Virus record (IMG/VR): IMGVR_UViG_3300009514_000007
Location: 41,381 to 105,380 of that record
Source of the DNA: a virus
Direction: 5' to 3' (one strand)
Length of the DNA: 64,000 bases
Below, piece by piece: positions 51,318-61,202 of the stretch. The notes below the pieces were generated by a model that saw only the letters and a list, made by a program, of their open reading frames with translations, searched no databases and had not been told where the DNA came from. Numbering within the stretch: position 1 is the first letter of the stretch; each line of letters begins with the position of its first letter. The position numbers and the translations under genes were made by a program.

Positions 51318-54300
51318 GTGGTGATGGACGACGCGCTTAAAGCCGTGTACGGCAAGCTCAAGGACTACCGCACGCGGACGGATCTTTCCCTGCGCGCATC
51401 TCCATTCCTCAAGCCCACGTTCACTGGCTTTGACGGCTCGGAGAAACCGTTGAGCCATCGCTACTACCAAGTGCAGGGGATCCTGCACTTGGTCGCCATG
51501 ACCCGGTTCTTGCTCGGCGACGACTGTGGACTCGGCAAGTGCGTGACCGGCGATACGTTGGTTTTGACCGATCAGGGCCTCCGCGAGATCCATACCTTGC
51601 GTGCCGATTTGAGCGAACCGGCCGAACCAGGCACGTTCCTCAAGGCCGAGCCGTGTCGAGTGTGGACTGGACGAGAATGGGCTCCGATTAAGTCGTTCTA
51701 TTTCGATGGGGAAAAACCAACGAAGCGGATCCAAACCCGCTACGGGTTCACCATCGAGGGCTCGTATCGTCACCCGCTGTGGGTTCGTAAATCGGAAGGT
51801 GAAGGTTGGAGGCGGCTGCCTGACCTCGCGGCGGGGGATTTCGTGTGCATTGAACGACGCGAGATGGCATGGCCGGAGGACAAGGTGCCTCTGCATTGGG
51901 TCACGGATCGCCCGTCCAATGCCAAGCAATACAAAACGCCCGAGTGTCTGACCCCGGAGCTTGCCCGGTTGCTCGGGTATTTCGTGGCGGAGGGAAATTC
52001 AACGAACCCAAACGGGTTCACGATCACGCAATTCGACCCCGAGGTACACGCGGACATCCGTGATTTGCTGGATGGCTGTTTTGGTTGGACGGGCAACGCC
52101 CATAGCCAGAAGGCCGACACGGAGATTCAAATATCGAGTGTCGTGCTCCGCGATTTCGTTGCGCACTGCGGGGCTCTGCATGTTAAATCGGCCAAGAAAC
52201 AGATCCCGTGGCGAATCCTCCGCTCCCCGCGTGAGGTCGTGGTTCAATTTCTACGCGGACTATTTGAGGGGGACGGCCATGCTCTCCCCGGATCCGGGAT
52301 CGAGTACACCTCAAAATCGAGGCGGCTGTGTTCGGAGGTCCAGGCCACGCTCCTGCGTTTTGGGATTGTGTCGAAAGTAAGCTGCAAACCCGTCAACGGT
52401 GAGGACTATTGGAGGCTGACGATCTTTGGCGACGACGCGAGGGGGTTTGCGCAGAAGATTGGGTTTGTGACGGCGCGCAAGAACGAAGCCTTGGATCAAG
52501 TGCTGTCGAAAAACGGCAACCCGAACCACGACGTGCTTCCGTTTGTTGCACCCCTTGTGTCCGCTTTGTATGCCAAGCTCAAAGATGCCACGACGGTTCG
52601 TGGAGCGAATGTCGCCAAACGCGGGTCGGGGATCAAGCAATTTGGCAACGGATTTCGGCTCGCCATGCGCGAGGTGATCAGGGGAGAGCGTGACCTGACC
52701 TATGCCAAGCTGGACGAGCTTCTTTCCCGGTGCCTGGATTTCGGATTGTCGTCGGAACCTGAGTTCCAAAAACTGCATACGCTTGCATCTCGTCGGTTTT
52801 TCTACGACCCCGTTGTGTCGATCGAGGACGGCCACGCTCCTGTCATGGACCTGGAGATCGATCACGACGACCACAGCTTCGTGGGCAACGGGTTCGTCAA
52901 CCACAACACACTCCAGGCGATCACCGCGCTGTGTTTCCTGTGGGAGCGCGATCCGAATCAAAAGGTCGTGATCCTGACGAACAAGAGTGCGGTCGGTCAG
53001 TGGTGCAAGGAATTCGACAAGTTCTGTCACTCGGACAAGCTCACGATTCTTCGCTGCATCGGCACCCCCGCCAAGCGCAAGAAGGTCTACGCCGAGTTTG
53101 AGGCCGCGACGGGGCCGACCATCCTGGTCATGGGGTACGCGACGGCGCGCCAGGACATCAGCCTGATCCAAGATTGGTCCGACTACATCGTGATCTTCGA
53201 TGAAGCCACGGCGTTCAAGAACCCCAAGACACAGATCTACAAGGTCGCTCGCCACCTGTCGGAGCGGGCAGCGGGGCTCGACCGGGAAAGTGGTGAGTGG
53301 CGTAAGGGTCGCGTGTGGGCGCTGACGGCGACGCTGATCAAGAACCACCTGATTGAAGGTTACGGGATCTACAGTGTGATCGTGCCGGGTCTGTTTCCGT
53401 CGAGCAAAAACAAATTCGTCAACCGCTTCTGCATCACCAAGCTCCAACGGATCAAGGGCAACCGCCATATCCCGATCATCGTCGGCTACCGCGACGGAGC
53501 CATTCCCGAGTTCAAGGAGAAGATCGACCCGTACTACCTTGGGCGACCCAAGCACGAGGTAGCCAAGGAGCTTCCGCCGCTCACGACCCGCATCGAGAAG
53601 GTCGGGTTGACTAAGGCGCAGAAGGACAAATACGCCGAGGCGCTTGCCGGGTTGTTGGAGATCGACAAGACGGGCGAGGAAAAGGAAACGACCAAGCTGA
53701 CGGCGTTGATCTACTGTCAGCAGATCGTAGACCACCCGGCGCTGGTCGAGTGCGAGGGAGAGTCGGAGAAGCTGGAGACGCTGATCGACCTCGTGACCAA
53801 TGGGGAATTCGCCGAGGAAAACGTGATCGTCTACTCGCGCTTCCGCAAGATGGTGGATTACATGCAGCCCATCTTGGAAAAGAAGGGCGTCAAGACGGTG
53901 CGCATCACAGGCGCCGAGAAGGACGACGAGCGCTTGGAGGCGATGGAGGCATTTCAGAACCCGAAAGCGGAAGCCCGTTGCGCGCTGATCACCGACGCGG
54001 CCTCCGAGGCGATCAACCTCCAGTCGGCCAAGGTGATCATCTTCTACGACTCGCCGTGGTCGGCAGGTAACCTGCTCCAGATCCTTGGCCGTATGATCCG
54101 AATCGGGTCTGAGCATGATCGCTGCTACGCCATTCATCTATGCGCGCGGCGAACCATTGACGAGAAGGTGCTCGCCGTCCTCAAAAAGAAGATGAAGCTG
54201 ATCGAGTCCATTATCGGTAAGCGGATCAAGGGCGAGGACGACGACGTAGAGGTTGCAGAGGTTAACGACATCACCGAGATCTTCGACGCCATGAAGGCCG

Positions 54301-54326
54301 ACGCATTGGGCTTCTTGAACGAATGA
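51318..54326 (+). CDS. SNF2/SWI2-family helicase interrupted by an intein
   Basis: Walker A GDDCGLGK|T, Walker B IFDEA, LTAT, EAINLQ, QILGRMIRIG. About 546 aa after splicing. Confidence 0.93.
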   Translation: MVMDDALKAVYGKLKDYRTRTDLSLRASPFLKPTFTGFDGSEKPLSHRYYQVQGILHLVAMTRFLLGDDCGLGKCVTGDTLVLTDQGLREIHTLRADLSEPAEPGTFLKAEPCRVWTGREWAPIKSFYFDGEKPTKRIQTRYGFTIEGSYRHPLWVRKSEGEGWRRLPDLAAGDFVCIERREMAWPEDKVPLHWVTDRPSNAKQYKTPECLTPELARLLGYFVAEGNSTNPNGFTITQFDPEVHADIRDLLDGCFGWTGNAHSQKADTEIQISSVVLRDFVAHCGALHVKSAKKQIPWRILRSPREVVVQFLRGLFEGDGHALPGSGIEYTSKSRRLCSEVQATLLRFGIVSKVSCKPVNGEDYWRLTIFGDDARGFAQKIGFVTARKNEALDQVLSKNGNPNHDVLPFVAPLVSALYAKLKDATTVRGANVAKRGSGIKQFGNGFRLAMREVIRGERDLTYAKLDELLSRCLDFGLSSEPEFQKLHTLASRRFFYDPVVSIEDGHAPVMDLEIDHDDHSFVGNGFVNHNTLQAITALCFLWERDPNQKVVILTNKSAVGQWCKEFDKFCHSDKLTILRCIGTPAKRKKVYAEFEAATGPTILVMGYATARQDISLIQDWSDYIVIFDEATAFKNPKTQIYKVARHLSERAAGLDRESGEWRKGRVWALTATLIKNHLIEGYGIYSVIVPGLFPSSKNKFVNRFCITKLQRIKGNRHIPIIVGYRDGAIPEFKEKIDPYYLGRPKHEVAKELPPLTTRIEKVGLTKAQKDKYAEALAGLLEIDKTGEEKETTKLTALIYCQQIVDHPALVECEGESEKLETLIDLVTNGEFAEENVIVYSRFRKMVDYMQPILEKKGVKTVRITGAEKDDERLEAMEAFQNPKAEARCALITDAASEAINLQSAKVIIFYDSPWSAGNLLQILGRMIRIGSEHDRCYAIHLCARRTIDEKVLAVLKKKMKLIESIIGKRIKGEDDDVEVAEVNDITEIFDAMKADALGFLNE
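51540..52907 (+). mobile_element. Intein with LAGLIDADG homing endonuclease (456 aa)
   Basis: Starts CVTGDT and ends FVNHN, followed by extein Thr. LAGLIDADG helices LARLLGYFVAEG and FLRGLFEGDG. Confidence 0.93.
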
Positions 54327-55363
54327 AGATCCGCAACAACAGTAACCATCCGCTCGTCGTAGCGGATGTGAAGGTACAGCCGCACGAGGTCCGCGAGGTC
54401 CGTGGGGACGTGTGGGCTCGCATGAAGGCCGAGCGTCCTGAGTTTGCCGAGGCTGTGGCGGAGGGTGTTTACGAGGAATTGGCGCACCTACTCCCTGGCG
54501 ACGGCTCCCCCGGCTGCCAGTTGTGCTTGGGCCGAGGCTTCATCTCCGAGGGTGTGGTCGGCCGTCGATGTACGTGCGTCCGCACGCGTGACGTGATCGC
54601 CAACGTCAACAAGATCTGGCCGATGTACCAGTTGATCAAGGCGGACAAGTTGCCCAAGGGTCACCGCTCCCCGCTGATGGATTTCGTGGACCGGAACCTC
54701 TACATCACCGCCCCCGAGGATCTGTTCAAGGCTCACCTGCGAGCCACGGCGATCCGGCAGGGGTCCGATTGGTACGCCCGTGTCCGTGGCGACAACGACC
54801 TGCTCCGAGCTTGGTTTTTCACAGCCAAAGCCAAGGGCGTCGAGATCTACGATGTGGACGTGGCTGACTCGCCCATTTCTGAGGACCCGAGCATCGAGGA
54901 TCTGGCTTTGCCGCCGGACCTGTTGATCGTGCTCATGGGGGTCAAGCGGACGCGCAACGTGGCCTCGCCCGAGACGCTGCTGGAGGTACTGAAACTCCGC
55001 GAGTTCCGCTCCAAGCCGACGTGGATCGTAGACCAGCCCAACTATCTGCTCACGTCAGATTTCCACCTGTTCAACGAAGCGGCGATCACGACGATCTTGG
55101 AGGCATGGAATCATGTCGAGCTTACTCGGCACATGCCTGTTGTCTCGCAGACGGATCCAGACGACATCCTGGCGGCCAGTAGCTCACCTTCGGCAACCGT
55201 CACCGCACCTACGGCAAAGCCCGCGCGACCGGGCAAGATTACGTTGTCGAGCCAGGTAGGTGCTGATCGAGGCAGAACGAAATCTGAGGATATTGTAGAG
55301 ACAGAGGAACCGTGGAAGCCGGGTAAGCCGAGCACATCGAGTAAGAGGGGGAAGGGCAAATGA
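54323..55363 (+). CDS. DnaC/IstB-like helicase-loader homologue with degenerate ATPase motifs (346 aa)
   Basis: CQLCLGRG...CTC zinc knuckle. NLYITAPEDLFKAHL at the Walker A position, DLLIVLMG at Walker B, then REFRSKPTWIV. Overlaps the DnaB-like gene. Confidence 0.6.
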   Translation: MKIRNNSNHPLVVADVKVQPHEVREVRGDVWARMKAERPEFAEAVAEGVYEELAHLLPGDGSPGCQLCLGRGFISEGVVGRRCTCVRTRDVIANVNKIWPMYQLIKADKLPKGHRSPLMDFVDRNLYITAPEDLFKAHLRATAIRQGSDWYARVRGDNDLLRAWFFTAKAKGVEIYDVDVADSPISEDPSIEDLALPPDLLIVLMGVKRTRNVASPETLLEVLKLREFRSKPTWIVDQPNYLLTSDFHLFNEAAITTILEAWNHVELTRHMPVVSQTDPDDILAASSSPSATVTAPTAKPARPGKITLSSQVGADRGRTKSEDIVETEEPWKPGKPSTSSKRGKGK

Positions 55364-56907
55364 AAACCCTCTTACGCTCTACGTTTCTCGTCAAGCCTGA
55401 CGAGAGTGCGGATCTGTTTCTCTCCAATTACCTCGCCCTGAGTAATTCGGGCCTCGGTTTTGAGACGACCGAGGACAACCTGATCTGGACCTACGTTCAA
55501 GAATTCTTCCGAACGCATAACCACGTCCCGACTCTCTCCACGCTCCGTGCTCACTTTGAACGGATCAAGGAGATGGAGGTCGTTGATCGTCTGGAGCAGC
55601 TTGGACAATTCCCGAGCCGCACCCGAGGCGATTTCCTGCGGCACCTTGAGGAAAAGGCCGAGGACCGCAAGATCCGAATGGTCCGTACCTACCTCAAGAC
55701 GGCGGCTGAGATCACCGAAACGGGGTACGAGGAAAAAGACGCACGCGGCAAGGTGGCTCGCAAGCTGATGGGCGCCGTCGATGCGATGCGGTTCTTGTTG
55801 GAAAAGAGCCACGACATCGTGGCCCCCACGCTCGGGAGTCGGCTCAGCGGTGGTGTGCTCGGGGCCGTCGATACGTTCAAGGAGAGGTATGAGCGTGTCG
55901 AGTCCGACCCGCAATTCGGGCGCGGGCAGTTCAGCGGGATCAAGCAGCTAGACGAGACGATGGGTGGCTGCAAGAAGGGCGAGCTTTGGACGCACGCGGC
56001 ATTCACCGGGCACATGAAATCGTCGTTGGCGATGTCGTGGTGCTACATGCAGGCCGTCTACTACTCCAACGACTCGCTCTACTTTTCGTTGGAGATGCCA
56101 TGGGAGCAGGTGCAGAACATCCTGTGGACGATGCACAGCTACCACGAGAAATTCCGCACGATTCGGATCAAGCTCGGGATTCAGCCAGCATCGAGCAAGA
56201 CACCGGGAGGCAAGGAGATCCACTACGACCGGGGCCTTGATTACGAGAAGGTCAAGTACGCACAGCTAAGCAAGAAGGAAAAGAGTTTCCTGTTTGACAT
56301 TGTAGCCGTGGATTTCAAGGACCCCGCCAACGGGTATGGCGAGGTTCACGTCGAGGTCGCCGATCCAGACAAGAGCGATTTCACGGTCGCCGATGCGCGA
56401 AGCAAGGCCGAGATCCTGTACGCCAAGAATCCGTTTTCGATGATCGTATTCGACCACATGGGGCTGATGGCTCCGCGCAAGTGGGTGGCGAGTACGACCG
56501 AGCGATCGAACGAGGTCATCCGAGATACGAAGCGGTTGGCGATGTCGTTCAACCGGGGCCAAGGTATCGCCGTCCTCGGCCTGTTTCAGATCAACCGTGA
56601 TGGTTTCCGGGCCGCTGAGAAAAACGAGGGTAAGTACAACCTCACTCACCTGGCCTACGCGAATGAATGCGAAAAGTCGTCCGACGTGGTGTCGGCCTCG
56701 TGGATTGACGATGACCTGCGTAAGCAGGGTCGTTTCTACATGCAGTGTCTCAAATCTCGTGACGTTGCCCCGTTTGAGCGGTTCGGCATCCGGGTAGAGT
56801 TTCACTGTCGGCGCCTGCTCACCGATGAATCGGGTGTCGAGATGATCGACGCGAAGCAAGAGAACGAGGCTATCGGTGACGAGATCGATCTACTGGAGGA
56901 TCTGTAA
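55360..56907 (+). CDS. dnaB: DnaB-like replicative helicase
   Basis: SGIKQLDETMGG..KGEL, AAFTGHMKS (H1), YFSLEM (H1a), VFDHMGLM (H2), LFQINR (H3), ECEKSSDVV and KSRD (H4). Confidence 0.88.
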   Translation: MKTLLRSTFLVKPDESADLFLSNYLALSNSGLGFETTEDNLIWTYVQEFFRTHNHVPTLSTLRAHFERIKEMEVVDRLEQLGQFPSRTRGDFLRHLEEKAEDRKIRMVRTYLKTAAEITETGYEEKDARGKVARKLMGAVDAMRFLLEKSHDIVAPTLGSRLSGGVLGAVDTFKERYERVESDPQFGRGQFSGIKQLDETMGGCKKGELWTHAAFTGHMKSSLAMSWCYMQAVYYSNDSLYFSLEMPWEQVQNILWTMHSYHEKFRTIRIKLGIQPASSKTPGGKEIHYDRGLDYEKVKYAQLSKKEKSFLFDIVAVDFKDPANGYGEVHVEVADPDKSDFTVADARSKAEILYAKNPFSMIVFDHMGLMAPRKWVASTTERSNEVIRDTKRLAMSFNRGQGIAVLGLFQINRDGFRAAEKNEGKYNLTHLAYANECEKSSDVVSASWIDDDLRKQGRFYMQCLKSRDVAPFERFGIRVEFHCRRLLTDESGVEMIDAKQENEAIGDEIDLLEDL

Positions 56908-57369
56908 ATGGAAATCTCGCTGAGACTAGGCGATTGCCGCGAGCGGCTTGCTGAGCTTGAGGACGAGTCGATGGACGCCGTGATCTTCGATCCCCCATAC
57001 GAGCTAGGCTTCATGGGCAAGGATTGGGATGCCTCGGGAGTCGCTTACGACCCGGAGCTTTGGGAAGAAATCATGCGTGCCCTCAAACCAGGCGGAGTCG
57101 TCAAGGCGTTCGGCGGGACACGGACATTTCACCGCATGGCTGCGGTGATGGAGAGAGTGGGTTTCGTAGGCGTTGCGACACAAATGGAGGCATGGACCTA
57201 CGGGAGTGGCTTCCCAAAAAGTCTAAACATTTCAAAGGCTTTGCGGAAAAAGGCCAAACAAGATTCTGATCCGTCGCTCGCCAAGCTCGCCGAAACATGG
57301 GAAGGGTACGGCACTGCGCTTAAACCAGCGTGGGAGCCGGTCCTTGTTGCCCACAAGCCGGAGGCGTAG
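56908..57369 (+). CDS. Beta-class DNA N6-A/N4-C methyltransferase, catalytic (DPPY) N-terminal module only (153 aa)
   Basis: GDC...DAVIFDPPYELGFMGKDWD...LKPGG...YGSGFPKS...ALKPAWEP. No FxGxG motif in this ORF. Confidence 0.88.
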   Translation: MEISLRLGDCRERLAELEDESMDAVIFDPPYELGFMGKDWDASGVAYDPELWEEIMRALKPGGVVKAFGGTRTFHRMAAVMERVGFVGVATQMEAWTYGSGFPKSLNISKALRKKAKQDSDPSLAKLAETWEGYGTALKPAWEPVLVAHKPEA

Positions 57370-58863
57370 GTGCGCGTCGTGACCCTGGCTCGCTCGCCTG
57401 TTCTTGGTGCTATGGCGGCGTGTATCGAGCAAGGGGCAGGCGCGCTCAACATCGACGGAACGCGGGTGGGCTTTCAAGGGGATAGTGATCGCGCCTCCGC
57501 GAAGCCGGGAGGGAAGCTGACAGCCAGAACGGGAGCCTTGGCGGGTAAGACTCAGAACCCAGATCAGAAGCGGACGGAGTTCACGTCGGACAACAACAAG
57601 GGGAGGTGGCCTGCCAACCTGATCCTCCAACACCGGGCGTCGTGTACCCAGACAGGTTCAACCACTGCACCGGGCTACACGATCAACCGCTGGACGGACG
57701 GAGCCAAGCCGTTTGGCGGTGGGGCAGGTCACGAGTACGAGAGCGAGAAGCAGCCCGACGAGAGCGTGGCGGTCTGGGAGTGCGCAACTGAGTGTGCGAT
57801 CGGGTTGTTGAATCGAGATGCTGGCGTGCTCACGAGCGGGGGCGGAAAGAAGCATCCAGTAGGAAGCAAGATCTACGGGCGAAGTTCGTATTTGGAGAGC
57901 GCAACTGCGGGCGATGGTTCGGATTGGCAAGCGAGCAAAGGAACCGCATCGAGATTCTTTCAACAGGTTCAGGAGACAACGATGAACGAGCTACCGCAAG
58001 AACTGGTCGATTACCTGGAGACGATGATCACGCCGCCCGATGGTGAGGTCTTGATCGTGCCGGATGTGTCGGCCGTCAACTGGACCGAGTACGACGACAA
58101 CCAGCTACACGGGGTCGTGGTCATCGGGAAGCGGGCGGATGAATTCAAGGGCAACGACTACCTCGATCAGATCTATCGGGTGCTTCGACCCGGTGCTCAT
58201 GTCGCCATGATTGCTTCCGACGAGCAGCCGACCGGGCACACGAACACCTGCGCCCTAGAGGACCAGGGCTTTGAGATCCGCGATGCCCTTTTGGTCGTGC
58301 AGGAGCCGGGGCGCATCCACTATGTCGCCAAAGCTGCAACTGCCGAGCGCAATGCAGGCGTCGCCCCGATCAAGCAAGAGGTCACGGTCGAACGGTGGTT
58401 CCCCAAAGACGACGCGGACCTTGACGAGATTATGGAGGCCCTGGCCGAGTCGCTTGAGCCTGAGCAAATTGACGAGATGGAGGTGGAAGGGCTCGACAAG
58501 AAAGAGGTCCCCAAGCATCTGCGCGATCAGTTTGAGTCGGCCACCTTTGAGCGGACGATCACACACCAGAACAACCACCCGACCTGCAAACCAATTGCCG
58601 TCATGGAGCGGTTGTTGGCGAACGTCCCCGAGGGCGCCGTCGTGTGTGACCCTTTCATGGGAAGCGGGACCACGGGCATCGCGTGTCTCAACACGAACCA
58701 CAGCTTCATCGGCATCGACCTGGAGGAACCCCACGTCAAGATCGCCGACGCTCGGATCCGACATTGGGATACGAAAAAGCGGCGGACCTGGGTGGCGGAG
58801 ATTGAGTCCGAGGTCGAGCCCGAGAAACAAGATGACCCGTTTGGCGGAATGTTCGGGGGATGA
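57370..58863 (+). CDS. Beta-class methyltransferase: variable module fused to a DPPY-less catalytic-domain copy and the SAM-binding module (497 aa)
   Basis: VTLARSP...GALNIDG.R...GRWPAN...ASRFF, then YRVLRPGAHV, HPTCKP and DPFMGSGTT. Internal AGGAGA RBS with in-frame ATG at 57982. Confidence 0.85.
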   Translation: MRVVTLARSPVLGAMAACIEQGAGALNIDGTRVGFQGDSDRASAKPGGKLTARTGALAGKTQNPDQKRTEFTSDNNKGRWPANLILQHRASCTQTGSTTAPGYTINRWTDGAKPFGGGAGHEYESEKQPDESVAVWECATECAIGLLNRDAGVLTSGGGKKHPVGSKIYGRSSYLESATAGDGSDWQASKGTASRFFQQVQETTMNELPQELVDYLETMITPPDGEVLIVPDVSAVNWTEYDDNQLHGVVVIGKRADEFKGNDYLDQIYRVLRPGAHVAMIASDEQPTGHTNTCALEDQGFEIRDALLVVQEPGRIHYVAKAATAERNAGVAPIKQEVTVERWFPKDDADLDEIMEALAESLEPEQIDEMEVEGLDKKEVPKHLRDQFESATFERTITHQNNHPTCKPIAVMERLLANVPEGAVVCDPFMGSGTTGIACLNTNHSFIGIDLEEPHVKIADARIRHWDTKKRRTWVAEIESEVEPEKQDDPFGGMFGG

Positions 58864-59498
58864 AGATCGTCACCCTCGCCCGTAAGCCTTTGGGGGGTTC
58901 GGTTGCTCAGGGGGTGGTCGAGCACAGAGCCGGTGCGATCAACATCGGTGGCACGCGAATTTCTGCGCATGGCCGTCCTTTGCGGACGTTCGACCCGAAG
59001 CCGGGGGTTGAGCGTAGCGTTGGTTGGGAGCCGGGGTGGGCGGGAGGCAGTAAGGCTAGCGGTCAGACCTCACTCGGCCGATGGCCTGCGAACGTCCTGC
59101 TCCAGCACACGGCCGGCTGTAAGTGTCGGGGGACCAAGAGGATACGGCCCGGTAACGGGTCGGGGCGTACAGGAAAAGGGGCACACGGCTTTCAGACCGC
59201 CTACGTCGGTGGCGACAAGAAATCCGATGGGTGGGTCGGCGACCATGTTGACGACAACGGTATGGAGACGGTCGATGCGTGGGAGTGCTCCGAGGGCTGT
59301 CCCATGCTTGACCTGGACGGACAAAGCGGTGTGACGCTCTCGTCGGGAGGCCGCACCGCGAACATCTCCAAGGGCCAACGGATCTACGGTGGCGGTCGAG
59401 GGCTCGGCCAAGACCTCACGCCCGACGAGGTACGTGGGGATCCTGGCTACGGGGACGTGGGTGGAGCGAGCCGCTTTTTCAAGCAGATTCAGCGGTAG
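58860..59498 (+). CDS. Stand-alone paralogue of the methyltransferase variable (TRD-region) module (212 aa)
   Basis: IVTLARKP...GAINIGGTR...GRWPANVLLQH...C..W.C...C...GASRFF. No DPPY and no FxGxG. Confidence 0.8.
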   Translation: MKIVTLARKPLGGSVAQGVVEHRAGAINIGGTRISAHGRPLRTFDPKPGVERSVGWEPGWAGGSKASGQTSLGRWPANVLLQHTAGCKCRGTKRIRPGNGSGRTGKGAHGFQTAYVGGDKKSDGWVGDHVDDNGMETVDAWECSEGCPMLDLDGQSGVTLSSGGRTANISKGQRIYGGGRGLGQDLTPDEVRGDPGYGDVGGASRFFKQIQR

Positions 59499-59704
59499 TA
59501 GTCGCGGACCTCGCCGACCGTCGAGCACCCGGCCGCGATGGCGACCTTGACTGCGCCTACGGTGATGCCGAGAGCACCTGCGATCACCGGAGCCGTCACG
59601 AGCGCGACAGGGGTGGCGAGGGTGATGCCGATGTCCTTGCCCATCTCAAAGAAGGGCTCGGTCACGTCGGATACGAGATCAACTACGTCGTCAAACAGAC
59701 CCAT
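59489..59704 (-). CDS. Small hydrophobic/membrane protein (71 aa)
   Basis: MGLFDDVVDLV...VALVTAPVIAGALGITVGAVKVAIAAG. Start reassigned to ATG 59704, just after the stop of 59722-60714. Confidence 0.6.
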   Translation of the reverse strand: MGLFDDVVDLVSDVTEPFFEMGKDIGITLATPVALVTAPVIAGALGITVGAVKVAIAAGCSTVGEVRDYYR

Positions 59705-59721
59705 CGCCAGCACTCTAGCGG

Positions 59722-60714
59722 CTACGCCTTGGCGGCGCCAGCCTGATCGAGCAGCTTGTTCAGGTCCTTGGTCGTGCTGTTCAAGCTGCGGACCCACGAG
59801 GCCACGCTGGCGGCAGCGGACTGAATGGCACGCCATGCGCCGCTCAGCATTCGGGTCAGGTCGCTCCAACCGAACGCGACGCGAGCGCCCTCGGCAACGG
59901 ACTCGACATGCTCCATCTGAGCCATCGCCGCGTTGAAATCATTGATCCCCGCGAGCACCTTGGTCAGAACCTCTTGGTGGGAAAGCTCGCGGAGAGCTTC
60001 GCGCAGCAACGTCTGGAATTTTTCCTCAAACGTGATCGTCGGCTCTGTGTGCGACTCGTGACGAGCAGCGGCAGCGGTTACGGCTTGCACGCTGTCTTGC
60101 ACGCTTTTGACCTCTTTTTGGAGAGCCTTGAGCTTCTTTTCCGCTCCGGCGAGCCATTTCTTGCGGCGTTCACCGCCGCGACCAGCTTCGACCTCTTTGG
60201 CGTGTTTGGCGACCAGGGCTTCGGCTTCCTCGATCTTGCCTTCCAAGGACCCGATCATGATCTCGGCTTCCAAGGCAGAGCGGCCGACCGCAGTGATCAG
60301 GCCCTCAGATTTCATCTTGGCCTTGACCCATTCCTCGATCTGATCGCCGTTCTTGATCCCGGCCAGGCTCATCTGCTTCGCCACGCCCTTACCACCCATG
60401 CCCTCGATGAATTCCTCGGGGAGCGTGATCCCAAACCCTTGCGGACGGCCCTTCTGGCACTTGTTTCGCCAGTAGGCCGTGGCACCGCCATAGTCAAAGT
60501 GATCCCCGAGCTTTTCCACGACCATCTTCCACGCGAGCAGACACTCGGGAGGCAGCTTGCCATCGTGTACGGCCGCCGCGATTCCACGCGGAGGACGGAA
60601 ACGGGAGTCAGGTGGCCCGGAGATGCGGGCCTCGTGGATCAACGGCAAAAGCTCGTCCCGAAGCTCAGGCTTCTCGTAGGCGAGCCGAACAAGGGAGCTT
60701 CGCAGATTCATCAC
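59722..60714 (-). CDS. Coiled-coil protein; candidate internal head protein (330 aa)
   Basis: N-terminal LRSSLVRLAYEKPELRDELLPL and a long heptad region. Preceded on the minus strand by GTCTATAG, a late-motif variant. Confidence 0.8.
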   Translation of the reverse strand: MMNLRSSLVRLAYEKPELRDELLPLIHEARISGPPDSRFRPPRGIAAAVHDGKLPPECLLAWKMVVEKLGDHFDYGGATAYWRNKCQKGRPQGFGITLPEEFIEGMGGKGVAKQMSLAGIKNGDQIEEWVKAKMKSEGLITAVGRSALEAEIMIGSLEGKIEEAEALVAKHAKEVEAGRGGERRKKWLAGAEKKLKALQKEVKSVQDSVQAVTAAAARHESHTEPTITFEEKFQTLLREALRELSHQEVLTKVLAGINDFNAAMAQMEHVESVAEGARVAFGWSDLTRMLSGAWRAIQSAAASVASWVRSLNSTTKDLNKLLDQAGAAKA

Positions 60715-60725
60715 CGAGGGCTGGC

Positions 60726-60732
60726 TATAGAC
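60726..60732 (-). promoter_or_regulatory. Candidate late promoter variant GTCTATA(G)
   Basis: Minus strand reads CCGTCTATAGCC, 11 nt upstream of ATG 60714. Confidence 0.45.
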
Positions 60733-60744
60733 GGACTAGGGCGA

Positions 60745-60772
60745 GGTTTCCGCTGGCGGGTGCCTGGCGTAA
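60745..60772 (+). promoter_or_regulatory. Bipartite promoter motif GGTTTC-N14-TGGCGTAA
   Basis: Exact spacing shared by four copies; in-frame GTG 60777 and ATG 60783 follow. Confidence 0.7.
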
Positions 60773-60782
60773 ATACGTGTGT

Positions 60783-61202
60783 ATGGACCGCTGCAAGCGT
60801 TGTGATGGAGCAGGCTTTCTCCCACAGTTTCGCCACGTCGAAAACGGCGTTTGTTGGCGTTGTGAGGGCTCAGGCACCGATCCGGGCAAGGCGCCGAAGC
60901 GACGGACCATCCGTCGCAGCCGAGTCGTGCGGGGGCCTCGGCTCAGCCGCGAGGCGAGATCGCGTCTGGATGCCCTGATCCGATCTGGCGGGAGCAAAGA
61001 ATTCACGCGGGTCACGCCGATTGGGCGTGAGCTACAGCGGCTCGGGCTCGTGCGGATTGAATTCGATCGCACCCGTGGGCGTGGACGGGCGATGGCGACT
61101 GACCGTGGCGCACGTAGCCATTGGAAGGCTATCGTCGCAGGATTGTTGCCAAATCCCCGCCACGAATCCGATCACGCCCGCACGGTTTCGCTTCGTTTCT
61201 AG
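60783..61202 (+). CDS. DnaJ-type zinc-finger (CxxCxGxG x2) basic protein (139 aa)
   Basis: CKRCDGAG and CWRCEGSG. Start reassigned from 60612, which overlaps the minus-strand gene. Confidence 0.7.
   Translation: MDRCKRCDGAGFLPQFRHVENGVCWRCEGSGTDPGKAPKRRTIRRSRVVRGPRLSREARSRLDALIRSGGSKEFTRVTPIGRELQRLGLVRIEFDRTRGRGRAMATDRGARSHWKAIVAGLLPNPRHESDHARTVSLRF

What the first reader, a model, noticed from the sequence alone, without database searches (positions are those of the whole stretch)
56908..59498. Beta-class DNA methyltransferase split into separately encoded modules, with a pseudo-catalytic partner and two alternative variable cassettes
Established: this phage family of beta-class amino-MTases is normally one chain (DPPY...EPIVLARKP...GALNID...GRWPAN...ASRFF.Y.AKA...HPTxKP...DPFxGSG). 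Seen here: module A (56908-57369) has DPPY but no SAM motif. Module B1 (57370-57981) is the variable middle region. Module C (from 57982) repeats the N-terminal domain (YRVLRPGAHV, ALEDQGFEIRD) without DPPY and carries HPTCKP and DPFMGSG. B2 (58860-59498) is a free-standing paralogue of B1. The junction motif is duplicated (A ends VLVAHKP; B1 and B2 begin VTLARSP and VTLARKP), which argues for an evolved split rather than decay. Inference: a hetero-oligomeric MTase in which A and C complement each other, loosely like an active/pseudo pair such as METTL3-METTL14, while B1 and B2 act as swappable specificity subunits against host restriction.
Basis: partly seen in the sequence, partly recalled or inferred. 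Interest (0 to 1): 0.75.

Follow-up and report, generated by a model that had tools for sequence, protein, structure and literature searches.

The report
Three-part split phage DNA methyltransferase
A very large uncultured phage encodes one DNA amino-methyltransferase as separate proteins: a catalytic half, a cofactor-binding body and several different copies of the middle piece that probably reads DNA. This conserved and apparently undescribed layout could let one enzyme mark several sequences to escape host restriction.

Summary
A (56908-57369) has DPPY but no SAM motif. BC (57370-58863) has the middle module B1, a DPPY-less copy of the N-terminal half (N') and the SAM-binding half (Ct). B2 (58860-59498) is a free B paralogue. 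A third B lies 15 kb downstream, outside the window.

This is not decay. Free A proteins (1383 hits) nearly all end right after EPxxxxKP. About 120 BC-type proteins start at M.V.TLARKP and lack DPPY. Free B and free N'-Ct proteins also exist. Related loci carry up to seven B genes in a row. Natural fusions occur as A-B-N'-Ct, B-N'-Ct-A and B-B-B-N'-Ct. dN/dS is 0.08-0.27.

A complex model (ipSAE 0.84, best control 0.00) pairs A's DPPY strand with Ct's DPFMGSG strand, which gives a composite active site. N' packs on A like a vestigial dimer partner. B's conserved motifs touch A and its three hypervariable segments do not. A conserved AGGAG-N6-ATG at the B1/C junction suggests that free C is also made.

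The role of B in specificity is inferred, not shown. I found no paper describing this design. The scan has noted the same kit in at least eight other huge-phage genomes.

The parts
56908..57369 (+). Gene A: free-standing N-terminal (motif IV-VIII) half of a beta-class amino-MTase. DPPY is at 56989-57000. It ends just after strand beta7 (EPVLVAHKPEA) at a TAG stop.
   Evidence: 1383 free-standing homologues were found, and 100 of the 120 listed end 1-6 aa after EPxxxxKP. dN/dS against L086 is 0.08.
57360..57372 (+). A/BC junction: GGAGG, 5 nt, then TAG (A stop) followed directly by GTG (BC start), in the same frame. This is probably translational coupling.
   Evidence: Relatives have A in another frame or kilobases away, so the shared frame here is not a conserved feature.
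57370..58863 (+). Gene BC (497 aa): B1 + N' + insert + Ct in one chain, with no DPPY.
   Evidence: 120 relatives have the B-N'-Ct layout. The AF2 model has pLDDT 79.9.
57370..57981 (+). Module B1: conserved frame (VTLARSP strand, GALNID, GRWPAN-H..C, W.C...C, ASRFF) holding three variable, low-confidence segments.
57970..57984 (+). CAGGAG (AGGAG) + 6 nt + in-frame ATG at the B1/C boundary. This is a candidate internal start that would give free C.
   Evidence: The same signal is present in 9 of 10 related loci. A Met is in the linker of 44 of 51 BC proteins, and the other seven have Val. Free N'-Ct proteins start at this point.
57982..58359 (+). N': a copy of the N-terminal half (RVLRPGAH, GFEIRD, HYVAKA..ERNAG) that has lost DPPY and the roughly 25 residues after it.
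   Evidence: In the complex model, residues 285-321 pack on A 70-79, 89-101 and 130-146.
58360..58560 (+). 67-residue insert (a beta hairpin plus helices) between ERNAG and HPTCKP. Some relatives have it and others do not.
58561..58779 (+). Ct: motif X/I-III half, with HPTCKP and DPFMGSG (58648-58668). This is the SAM-binding half.
   Evidence: matches M.BceJIV, M1.HpyAVI, CcrM and M.MboIIA by sequence. (RsrI Z 7.1, rmsd 2.5, 89 aligned; BceJIV Z 6.9, rmsd 1.4, 76 aligned).
58860..59498 (+). Gene B2: free-standing B module (212 aa). Its ATG overlaps the BC stop, and it ends TAGTAG.
   Evidence: Orthologues (about 50% identical) sit in B arrays next to free C and A genes. dN/dS is 0.27. It has no Pfam, NCBIfam, PADLOC or PDB match.

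Best explanation
This is a functional, naturally split beta-class DNA amino-methyltransferase made of three kinds of part.

- A is the catalytic half. It has strands beta4-beta7 and motif IV (DPPY).
- C (N'-Ct) is the hub. Its Ct half binds SAM through DPFMGSG. N' is a degenerate second N-half.
- B is the middle module, which in one-chain relatives lies between the two halves.

A docks on Ct so that its DPPY strand lies beside the DPFMGSG strand, giving one complete Rossmann fold and one composite active site. N' packs against A like the remnant of the second protomer of a class-beta dimer. B docks through its conserved motifs (GALNID, GRWPAN, SRFF). It presents three hypervariable segments that most likely read the DNA sequence.

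B1 is tethered to C. B2 and B3 are free paralogues that would use free C made from a conserved internal start, giving the phage several methylation specificities from one core.

Shown here: the modules, their boundaries, their conservation and selection, and the natural fusions. Predicted by modelling: A-BC binding and the composite site. Inferred: B as the specificity subunit, the internal start, and protection from host restriction.
For: 1. Motifs are distributed in a complementary way. DPPY is only in A and DPFMGSG only in C. The 116-kb contig has one A, one Ct and three B modules.

2. The parts are conserved as separate genes.
- 1383 free A-type proteins were found, and 100 of the 120 listed end 1-6 aa after EPxxxxKP.
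- 120 proteins have the B-N'-Ct layout without DPPY.
- Free B proteins start M.V.TLARKP and end GGASRFFKQ.
- Seven free N'-Ct proteins were found.

3. The gene neighbourhood is conserved. Of 12 loci with a BC or C gene, 8 have a free A gene and 11 a free B gene within the fetched flanks. B arrays reach 5-7 genes (L089, L090, L100, L117). L170 is a minimal C|A|B kit.

4. Natural fusions occur in several orders: A-B-N'-Ct (L007, P0364 and others), N'-Ct-A (P0367, P0388, L114), B-N'-Ct-A (P0390) and B-B-B-N'-Ct (P0363).

5. Selection is purifying. dN/dS is 0.08 for A, 0.14-0.21 for BC and 0.27 for B2, though dS is near saturation.

6. The complex model of BC + A scores ipSAE 0.84, against 0.00 for the best of 3 controls.
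- That mark was reached by 58 of 80 solved complexes and 2 of 110 mismatched pairs. These counts hold only roughly because I used my own alignments.
- The runs agree in at least 89% of contacts, and the partner's pLDDT is at least 83.
- A 24-25 (before DPPY) pairs with BC 425-427 (before DPFMGSG). A 3-6 pairs with BC 445-449. N' 285-321 lies on A 70-79, 89-101 and 130-146. B1 24-30 and 79-84 touch A 134-138.

7. B1 residues that touch A lie in conserved columns of the B family (0.78 against 0.43, Mann-Whitney p 6e-8). The three variable segments do not touch A.

8. In the AF2 model of BC alone, beta-class MTases align only to residues 316-483 (RsrI Z 7.1, rmsd 2.5, 89 aligned; CcrM Z 6.7, rmsd 3.0, 92 aligned). 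N' aligns separately to generic Rossmann MTases (PrmA Z 5.6, rmsd 2.7, 97 aligned). This fits a Ct half that waits for A. These Z values are middling.

9. AGGAG-N6-ATG at the B/C junction is kept in 9 of 10 loci.

10. Class-beta MTases are known to work as dimers that divide recognition and catalysis between subunits (PMC7544214).
Against: - There is no biochemical or methylome evidence at all. The activity, the target base and the motifs are unknown.
- The complex model may pass from memory, because A + Ct simply rebuild the solved one-chain fold, and the tool warns that halves of a split gene tend to pass. All its runs come from one predictor.
Docking of a free B is therefore inferred from B1.
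- B2 alone folds poorly (pLDDT 60) and has no fold match, so nothing shows that it binds DNA.
- B1's middle segment is highly conserved among BC proteins, which is not what a fast-changing specificity loop would show. It may reflect one widespread specificity type.
- The AGGAG-ATG could be a relic of the gene fusion, kept because CAG and GAG are the preferred codons at 60% G+C.
- The contig is only about 22% of the estimated genome, so other partners may exist elsewhere.
Confidence: 0.66

Rival explanations
1. This is a real multi-subunit methyltransferase (A + C form the enzyme), but the B modules do not set sequence specificity. They could be non-specific DNA clamps, assembly or stability factors, regulators, or adaptors for different substrates (ssDNA, RNA, modified DNA) or different hosts.
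For: B2 has no recognisable DNA-binding fold, and its model is poor. Relatives of this class such as M.EcoGII are sequence non-specific (PMC7544214). The B1-type middle segment is strongly conserved.
Against: Loci keep 5-7 diverged B paralogues side by side. Each has orthologues in other phages and is under purifying selection. The variation is concentrated in three segments that do not touch A. B sits where the target recognition domain lies in class-beta enzymes. Tandem B-B-B fusions parallel the tandem target recognition domains of multispecific phage C5-MTases (references 86 and 87 in PMC7544214).
Confidence: 0.17
2. In this phage, A and BC are really one gene. The in-frame TAG would then be an assembly error, a recent nonsense mutation or a read-through site, and the working product would be an A-B-N'-Ct single chain as in L007.
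For: A and BC share a frame, with only a TAG between them. Natural single-chain A-B-N'-Ct proteins exist and carry the same duplicated junction strand.
Against: In relatives A is a separate gene, in another frame (L086) or 1-3 kb away (L006, L087, L089). Free A proteins end at exactly this point. GGAGG lies 5 nt before the GTG, and BC relatives start there. TAG is a common stop in this contig, and B2 ends TAGTAG. Either way the protein parts would be the same.
Confidence: 0.07
3. These are decaying remnants of ordinary one-chain methyltransferase genes (pseudogenes) with no joint function.
For: A's Pfam score is below the gathering threshold (21.9 against 26.7), and C has lost DPPY.
Against: The same modules, with the same precise boundaries, occur in hundreds of diverged genomes. 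dN/dS is 0.08-0.27. The genes are translationally coupled. Some relatives carry inteins, which usually sit in proteins that matter to the host genome. Natural fusions occur in several orders.
Confidence: 0.03

Closest known systems
One-chain phage beta-class N6A/N4C DNA methyltransferases with the GALNID / GRWPxN / SRFF middle segment (Pfam PF01555, phrog_67), for example Mycobacterium phage Mahavrat gp63 and Rimmer gp97
   Same: A, B and Ct align in order with the N-terminal, middle and C-terminal thirds of these enzymes. All the motifs are shared: DPPY, EPxxxARKP, GALNID, GRWPxN, SRFF, Y.AKA..ER, HPTxKP and DPFxGSG.
   Different: Here the thirds are separate genes. The junction strand is duplicated. 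The SAM-binding part carries an extra DPPY-less N-half (N'). The middle part is present in several free copies.
Dimeric class-beta MTases with division of labour (CcrM, M.EcoP15I Mod2) and the active/inactive heterodimers METTL3-METTL14 and MTA1-MTA9
   Same: They share the fold family. One subunit supplies catalysis, and a partner that is dead or silent at motif IV supplies support or recognition. The modelled A-N' contact uses equivalent elements of both halves, like a dimer interface.
   Different: In those enzymes both protomers are complete MTase domains. Here the active domain is itself assembled from two chains, and the 'partner' N' is only a half-domain fused to the SAM-binding half.
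Naturally split C5-cytosine MTases M.AquI and M.EcoHK31I
   Same: One methyltransferase is encoded as two polypeptides, and both are needed (PMC3404938).
   Different: They belong to a different enzyme class (C5), have two parts only, have no spare half-domain, and have no family of alternative recognition subunits.
Multispecific Bacillus phage C5-MTases with several target-recognising domains in tandem (Trautner and co-workers, references 86 and 87 in PMC7544214)
   Same: A phage enzyme carries several recognition modules on one catalytic core. Relatives here have B-B-N'-Ct and B-B-B-N'-Ct chains.
   Different: Those are C5 enzymes whose modules all lie in one chain. Here the modules are mostly separate genes in arrays, and the catalytic core is itself split.
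Type I restriction-modification HsdS specificity subunits
   Same: The working principle is shared: a separate protein would give sequence specificity to a methylase core, and multiple or variable copies diversify the targets.
   Different: There is no sequence relation (B2 has no Pfam, NCBIfam or PADLOC match). The core is gamma-class rather than beta-class. No restriction partner is present here.

Membership tests
Class-beta N6A/N4C DNA amino-methyltransferase (Pfam PF01555 N6_N4_Mtase) | Motif IV (D/N/S)PP(Y/F/W) | tested here: met
   DPPY is at A residues 28-31 and is invariant in 51 A-type proteins. It is absent from BC and from 120 BC-type relatives.
Class-beta N6A/N4C DNA amino-methyltransferase (Pfam PF01555 N6_N4_Mtase) | Motif I FxGxG (SAM binding), lying after motif IV in the same chain | tested here: not met
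   DPFMGSG is present, but on a different polypeptide (BC 427-433) from DPPY (A). The motif order IV...I holds only across the A-stop-BC reading.
Class-beta N6A/N4C DNA amino-methyltransferase (Pfam PF01555 N6_N4_Mtase) | Score above Pfam's gathering threshold | tested here: met
   BC scores 72.8 bits against a threshold of 26.7. A alone scores 21.9 bits, below the threshold, and covers profile positions 2-107. B2 has no match.
Class-beta N6A/N4C DNA amino-methyltransferase (Pfam PF01555 N6_N4_Mtase) | SAM-dependent methylation of adenine N6 or cytosine N4 in DNA | not testable with these tools
   This needs expression and methylome reading.
Naturally split (multi-polypeptide) DNA methyltransferase | The parts bind each other and rebuild one catalytic domain | tested here: inconclusive
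   The complex model scores ipSAE 0.84 against 0.00 for the best control. The mark was reached by 58 of 80 solved complexes and 2 of 110 mismatched pairs. Runs agree in at least 89% of contacts, and the partner's pLDDT is at least 83. The DPPY strand pairs with the DPFMGSG strand. This is a prediction that may rest on memory of one-chain structures. Natural fusions support it.
Naturally split (multi-polypeptide) DNA methyltransferase | The split is conserved and under selection, so it is not a pseudogene | tested here: met
Active/pseudo heterodimer of two whole MTase domains (METTL3-METTL14 type) | The inactive partner is a complete MTase fold with an eroded motif IV | tested here: inconclusive
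   N' has an eroded motif IV, with the loop deleted. In the models it does not form a whole domain with Ct. Beta-class chains align to 316-483 only (for example RsrI Z 7.1, rmsd 2.5, 89 aligned). N' matches generic Rossmann folds separately (PrmA Z 5.6, rmsd 2.7, 97 aligned). The Z values are middling, and this rests on a model only.
Separate specificity subunit (Type I HsdS-like principle) | Homology to HsdS (Methylase_S) | tested here: not met
   B2 has no Pfam, NCBIfam, PADLOC or PDB sequence match. The resemblance is in principle only.
Separate specificity subunit (Type I HsdS-like principle) | Exchanging the subunit changes the methylated sequence | not testable with these tools
   Only indirect support is available: arrays of diverged B genes, variable segments outside the docking surface, and tandem B fusions.

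The most novel reading that the evidence does not exclude
This would be a combinatorial plug-in methyltransferase. One SAM-binding hub (C, also made free from an internal start), one catalytic half (A) and a library of interchangeable recognition subunits (B1 in cis, B2 and B3 in trans) assemble by completing each other's fold. A huge phage could then write as many methylation motifs as it has B genes. That would be an HsdS-like principle that arose independently inside a beta-class enzyme, with the catalytic domain itself built from two chains.
Probability: 0.45. Interest if true: 0.82.

Novelty: new variant of a known kind. Interest (0 to 1): 0.72.

Why it matters
If the parts assemble as predicted, this is a widespread and so far undescribed way of building a DNA methyltransferase. 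The Rossmann fold would be completed across two polypeptides, a vestigial half-protomer would be kept as scaffold, and the recognition module would be detached and multiplied.

It would explain how huge phages with broad or shifting host ranges protect their DNA against many restriction systems at little coding cost. It would also give a natural test bed for the 'division of labour' idea in class-beta dimers.

The system could offer a modular scaffold for programmable DNA methylation. It is directly testable in laboratory E. coli with long-read methylome reading.

Tried and rejected
1. A scan of viral contigs with the whole-BC alignment used generic motifs (DPFxGSGT, GFEIRD). It returned mostly ordinary MTases, and only L006-L008 were useful. 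A B-N' sub-alignment (A4) on metagenome contigs worked better.

2. I built an alignment for a pseudo-fused A-Q-BC chain (A6). MAFFT laid the N' of the BC rows onto A, so I did not fold it.

3. B2 folded alone gave a poor model (pLDDT 60, pTM 0.45). The wide VIA search found nothing at Z 2 or more. This says nothing about whether the fold is new.

4. B2 had no sequence match in the PDB, Pfam, NCBIfam or PADLOC. It gave only a weak phrog_3008 match over residues 6-87. The ESM Atlas lists only unnamed viral clusters.

5. TAG recoding is rejected. TAG ends 65 of 149 long frames in the contig, and B2 ends TAGTAG.

6. The sigma-70 promoter and terminator scan of 54000-60900 found nothing above shuffles.

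7. The locus of the closest B2 relative (P0244) had no DNA available. Only its gene table could be read.

8. Five literature searches found no description of this split layout. The library lacks most subscription papers, so this is not proof of absence.

9. In the fold search of the BC model, no solved beta-class chain aligned N' and Ct together. This is an absence in a second-look search of a 497-residue model, so I treat it as weak.
Full report
**What is in the window.** The window lies on a 115,952-bp IMG/VR virus contig that CheckV rates about 22% complete, so the phage is probably very large. Three co-directional genes follow the DnaB-like helicase (55360-56907).
- A (56908-57369, 153 aa) carries DPPY and ends EPVLVAHKPEA.
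- BC (57370-58863, 497 aa) starts at a GTG directly after A's TAG, in the same frame, with GGAGG 5 nt upstream.
- B2 (58860-59498, 212 aa) has an ATG that overlaps BC's TGA.

Pfam places A on positions 2-107 of the N6_N4_Mtase profile and BC residues 264-459 on positions 35-219. B2 matches nothing. BC therefore holds the middle segment (B1), a second DPPY-less copy of the N-terminal half (N') and the SAM-binding half (Ct, with HPTCKP and DPFMGSG). A third B module lies 15 kb downstream, at the contig end and outside the window.

**Reference enzymes.** The nearest named phage proteins are one-chain mycobacteriophage methylases, Mahavrat gp63 and Rimmer gp97. They read DPPY...EPVVVARKP-GALNID...GRWPTN...SRFF..Y.AKA..ER...HPTVKP...DPFAGSG. 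A, B and Ct correspond to their three thirds. A and BC both hit phrog_67.

**The split is conserved, not decay.**
- BC has thousands of relatives. The 120 best nearly all begin M.V.TLARKP, lack DPPY and have the B-N'-Ct order. In them DPPY is replaced by G[DN]P[STE], and the roughly 25 residues that follow it in active enzymes are deleted.
- Free A-type proteins number 1383. Of the 120 listed, 100 end 1-6 residues after EPxxxxKP.
- Free B-type proteins of about 200-225 aa begin M.V.TLARKP and end GGASRFFKQ.
- Free N'-Ct proteins begin at PQEL.DYL.
- dN/dS against the nearest relatives with DNA in hand is 0.08 (A), 0.14-0.21 (BC) and 0.27 (B2). dS is near saturation, so these are rough, but they are far from 1.

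**Neighbourhoods.** I built HMMs of the four modules and scanned all fetched loci.
- Of 12 loci with a BC or C gene, 8 have a free A gene and 11 a free B gene inside the fetched flanks.
- L089 and L090 have A, BC and five B genes. L117 has seven B genes in a row and L100 has five.
- L008 reads C|A|A|B|A|B|B.
- L170 is a minimal C|A|B kit on a 205-kb contig.
- The closest B2 relative sits in a run of five B-sized genes before a 294-aa PF01555 gene.

**Natural fusions.** The parts also occur joined in several orders:
- A-B-N'-Ct, in L007 (577 aa, with the duplicated junction strand) and in P0364 and others
- N'-Ct-A, in P0367, P0388 and L114
- B-N'-Ct-A, in P0390
- B-B-N'-Ct and B-B-B-N'-Ct, the latter in P0363 (899 aa)
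- one-chain A-B-B-Ct forms

Fusion of A to either end of BC argues that they act together. Ct followed by A gives the ordinary I-III then IV-VIII motif order of a contiguous Rossmann fold.

**Modelling.** The complex job on BC (66-row alignment) plus A (51 rows) gave ipSAE 0.84, 0.84 and 0.85 in three runs, against 0.00 for the best of three controls.
- That mark was reached by 58 of 80 solved complexes and 2 of 110 mismatched pairs. The counts hold only roughly with my own alignments.
- The runs share at least 89% of contacts, and the partner's pLDDT is at least 83.

The contacts are informative:
- A 24-25 (AV, the strand before DPPY) pairs with BC 425-427 (VCD, the strand before DPFMGSG).
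- A's first strand (residues 3-6) pairs with BC 445-449 (SFIGI).
- N' 285-321 lies on A 70-79, 89-101 and 130-146, which are the equivalent elements of the two halves.
- B1's GALNID and RWPANL touch A's GTALK loop.

So the model completes Ct with A, puts DPPY next to the SAM site, and leaves N' as a half-domain on A's flank. This may be partly memory of solved one-chain enzymes.

AlphaFold2 on BC alone (pLDDT 79.9; N' and Ct above 90; B's variable segments below 50) fits this picture.
- Solved beta-class MTases align only to residues 316-483 (RsrI Z 7.1, rmsd 2.5, 89 aligned; M.BceJIV Z 6.9, rmsd 1.4, 76 aligned; CcrM Z 6.7, rmsd 3.0, 92 aligned).
- N' matches generic Rossmann MTases separately (PrmA Z 5.6, rmsd 2.7, 97 aligned).
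- These Z values are middling, so this is weak support.

**What B is.** An alignment of 53 B modules shows a fixed frame:
- strand plus helix, GALNID..R
- GRWPAN..H...C
- W.C...C, a likely H/C3 zinc site
- GGASRFFKQ

This frame encloses three hypervariable segments. The B1 residues that touch A in the model lie in conserved columns (mean 0.78 against 0.43, p 6e-8). The variable segments do not touch A.

B occupies the place of the target recognition domain of class-beta enzymes. Those enzymes work as dimers in which the recognition domain of one subunit faces the catalytic site of the other (PMC7544214). Diverged paralogues kept side by side, orthologues shared between phages, and tandem B fusions make alternative recognition modules the best reading. 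Nothing here shows DNA binding, and B2 alone folds poorly with no fold match.

**How free B modules could be used.** At the B1/C junction, CAGGAG plus 6 nt plus ATG (57970-57984) is present in 9 of 10 diverged loci. The linker holds a Met in 44 of 51 BC proteins, and the other seven have Val. Free C proteins start at this point. An internal start that yields free C would let B2 and B3 use the hub.

**Known or new.** Known relatives in principle are:
- the split C5 enzymes M.AquI and M.EcoHK31I (PMC3404938)
- multispecific phage C5-MTases with tandem recognition domains
- Type I HsdS subunits
- the METTL3-METTL14 and MTA1-MTA9 pairs

None combines a catalytic fold built from two chains, a vestigial half-protomer and arrays of detached recognition modules. 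Five literature searches found no description of this layout. The scan itself has recorded the same kit in at least eight other huge-phage genomes. I reached my reading before seeing those notes, and they agree with it.

**Verdict.** The specificity role of B, and the purpose of escaping restriction, remain inference.

Noticed in passing
outside the window: G000:C1:115570-115950 (L005 1498-1878): A third B module (B3) begins MMRVVTLARKP..GGLSID..GRWPTN. It is a short type without the Cys-rich insert, like the mycobacteriophage one-chain enzymes, and it runs off the contig end at GGGASR.
   Followed up: partly
L006 3498-6056; L007 74-1606; proteins P0005, P0018, P0019, P0038, P0039, P0054, P0056, P0089, P0104: Many relatives of BC, and one A-type gene, carry intein or homing-endonuclease insertions (Pfam LAGLIDADG_3, Hint_2). 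These raise the protein length to about 780-870 aa.
   Followed up: no
window 58360-58560 (BC residues 331-397): A 67-residue insert between ERNAG and HPTCKP is confidently modelled as a beta hairpin plus helices. It is present in close relatives but absent in others (P0033, P0108, P0122). Its role is unknown.
   Followed up: no
window 57370-57411: The collection's gene call for BC (P0003, 483 aa) starts at the ATG 14 codons inside. All relatives begin at the M.V.TLARKP strand, so the GTG at 57370 is the likely start.
   Followed up: yes
window 55360-57369 and L089 306-2500: The order DnaB-like helicase then gene A is shared with the 116-kb relative L089. The methylase kit therefore sits in the replication module in both.
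   Followed up: partly
L087 1283-1948; L088 379-1053: An MT-A70 family methyltransferase gene lies a few genes upstream of the split kit in two relatives, so these phages carry more than one methylation system.
   Followed up: no
L008 3045-7782; L094 253-3853: Some relatives have several different free A genes (three each) beside one C gene, so the catalytic half may also come in alternative versions.
   Followed up: partly
L170 4919-15393: Next to its C|A|B kit, the 205-kb relative encodes a type IB topoisomerase, a thymidine kinase, a SET-domain protein and an AcrVA2-like protein.
   Followed up: no
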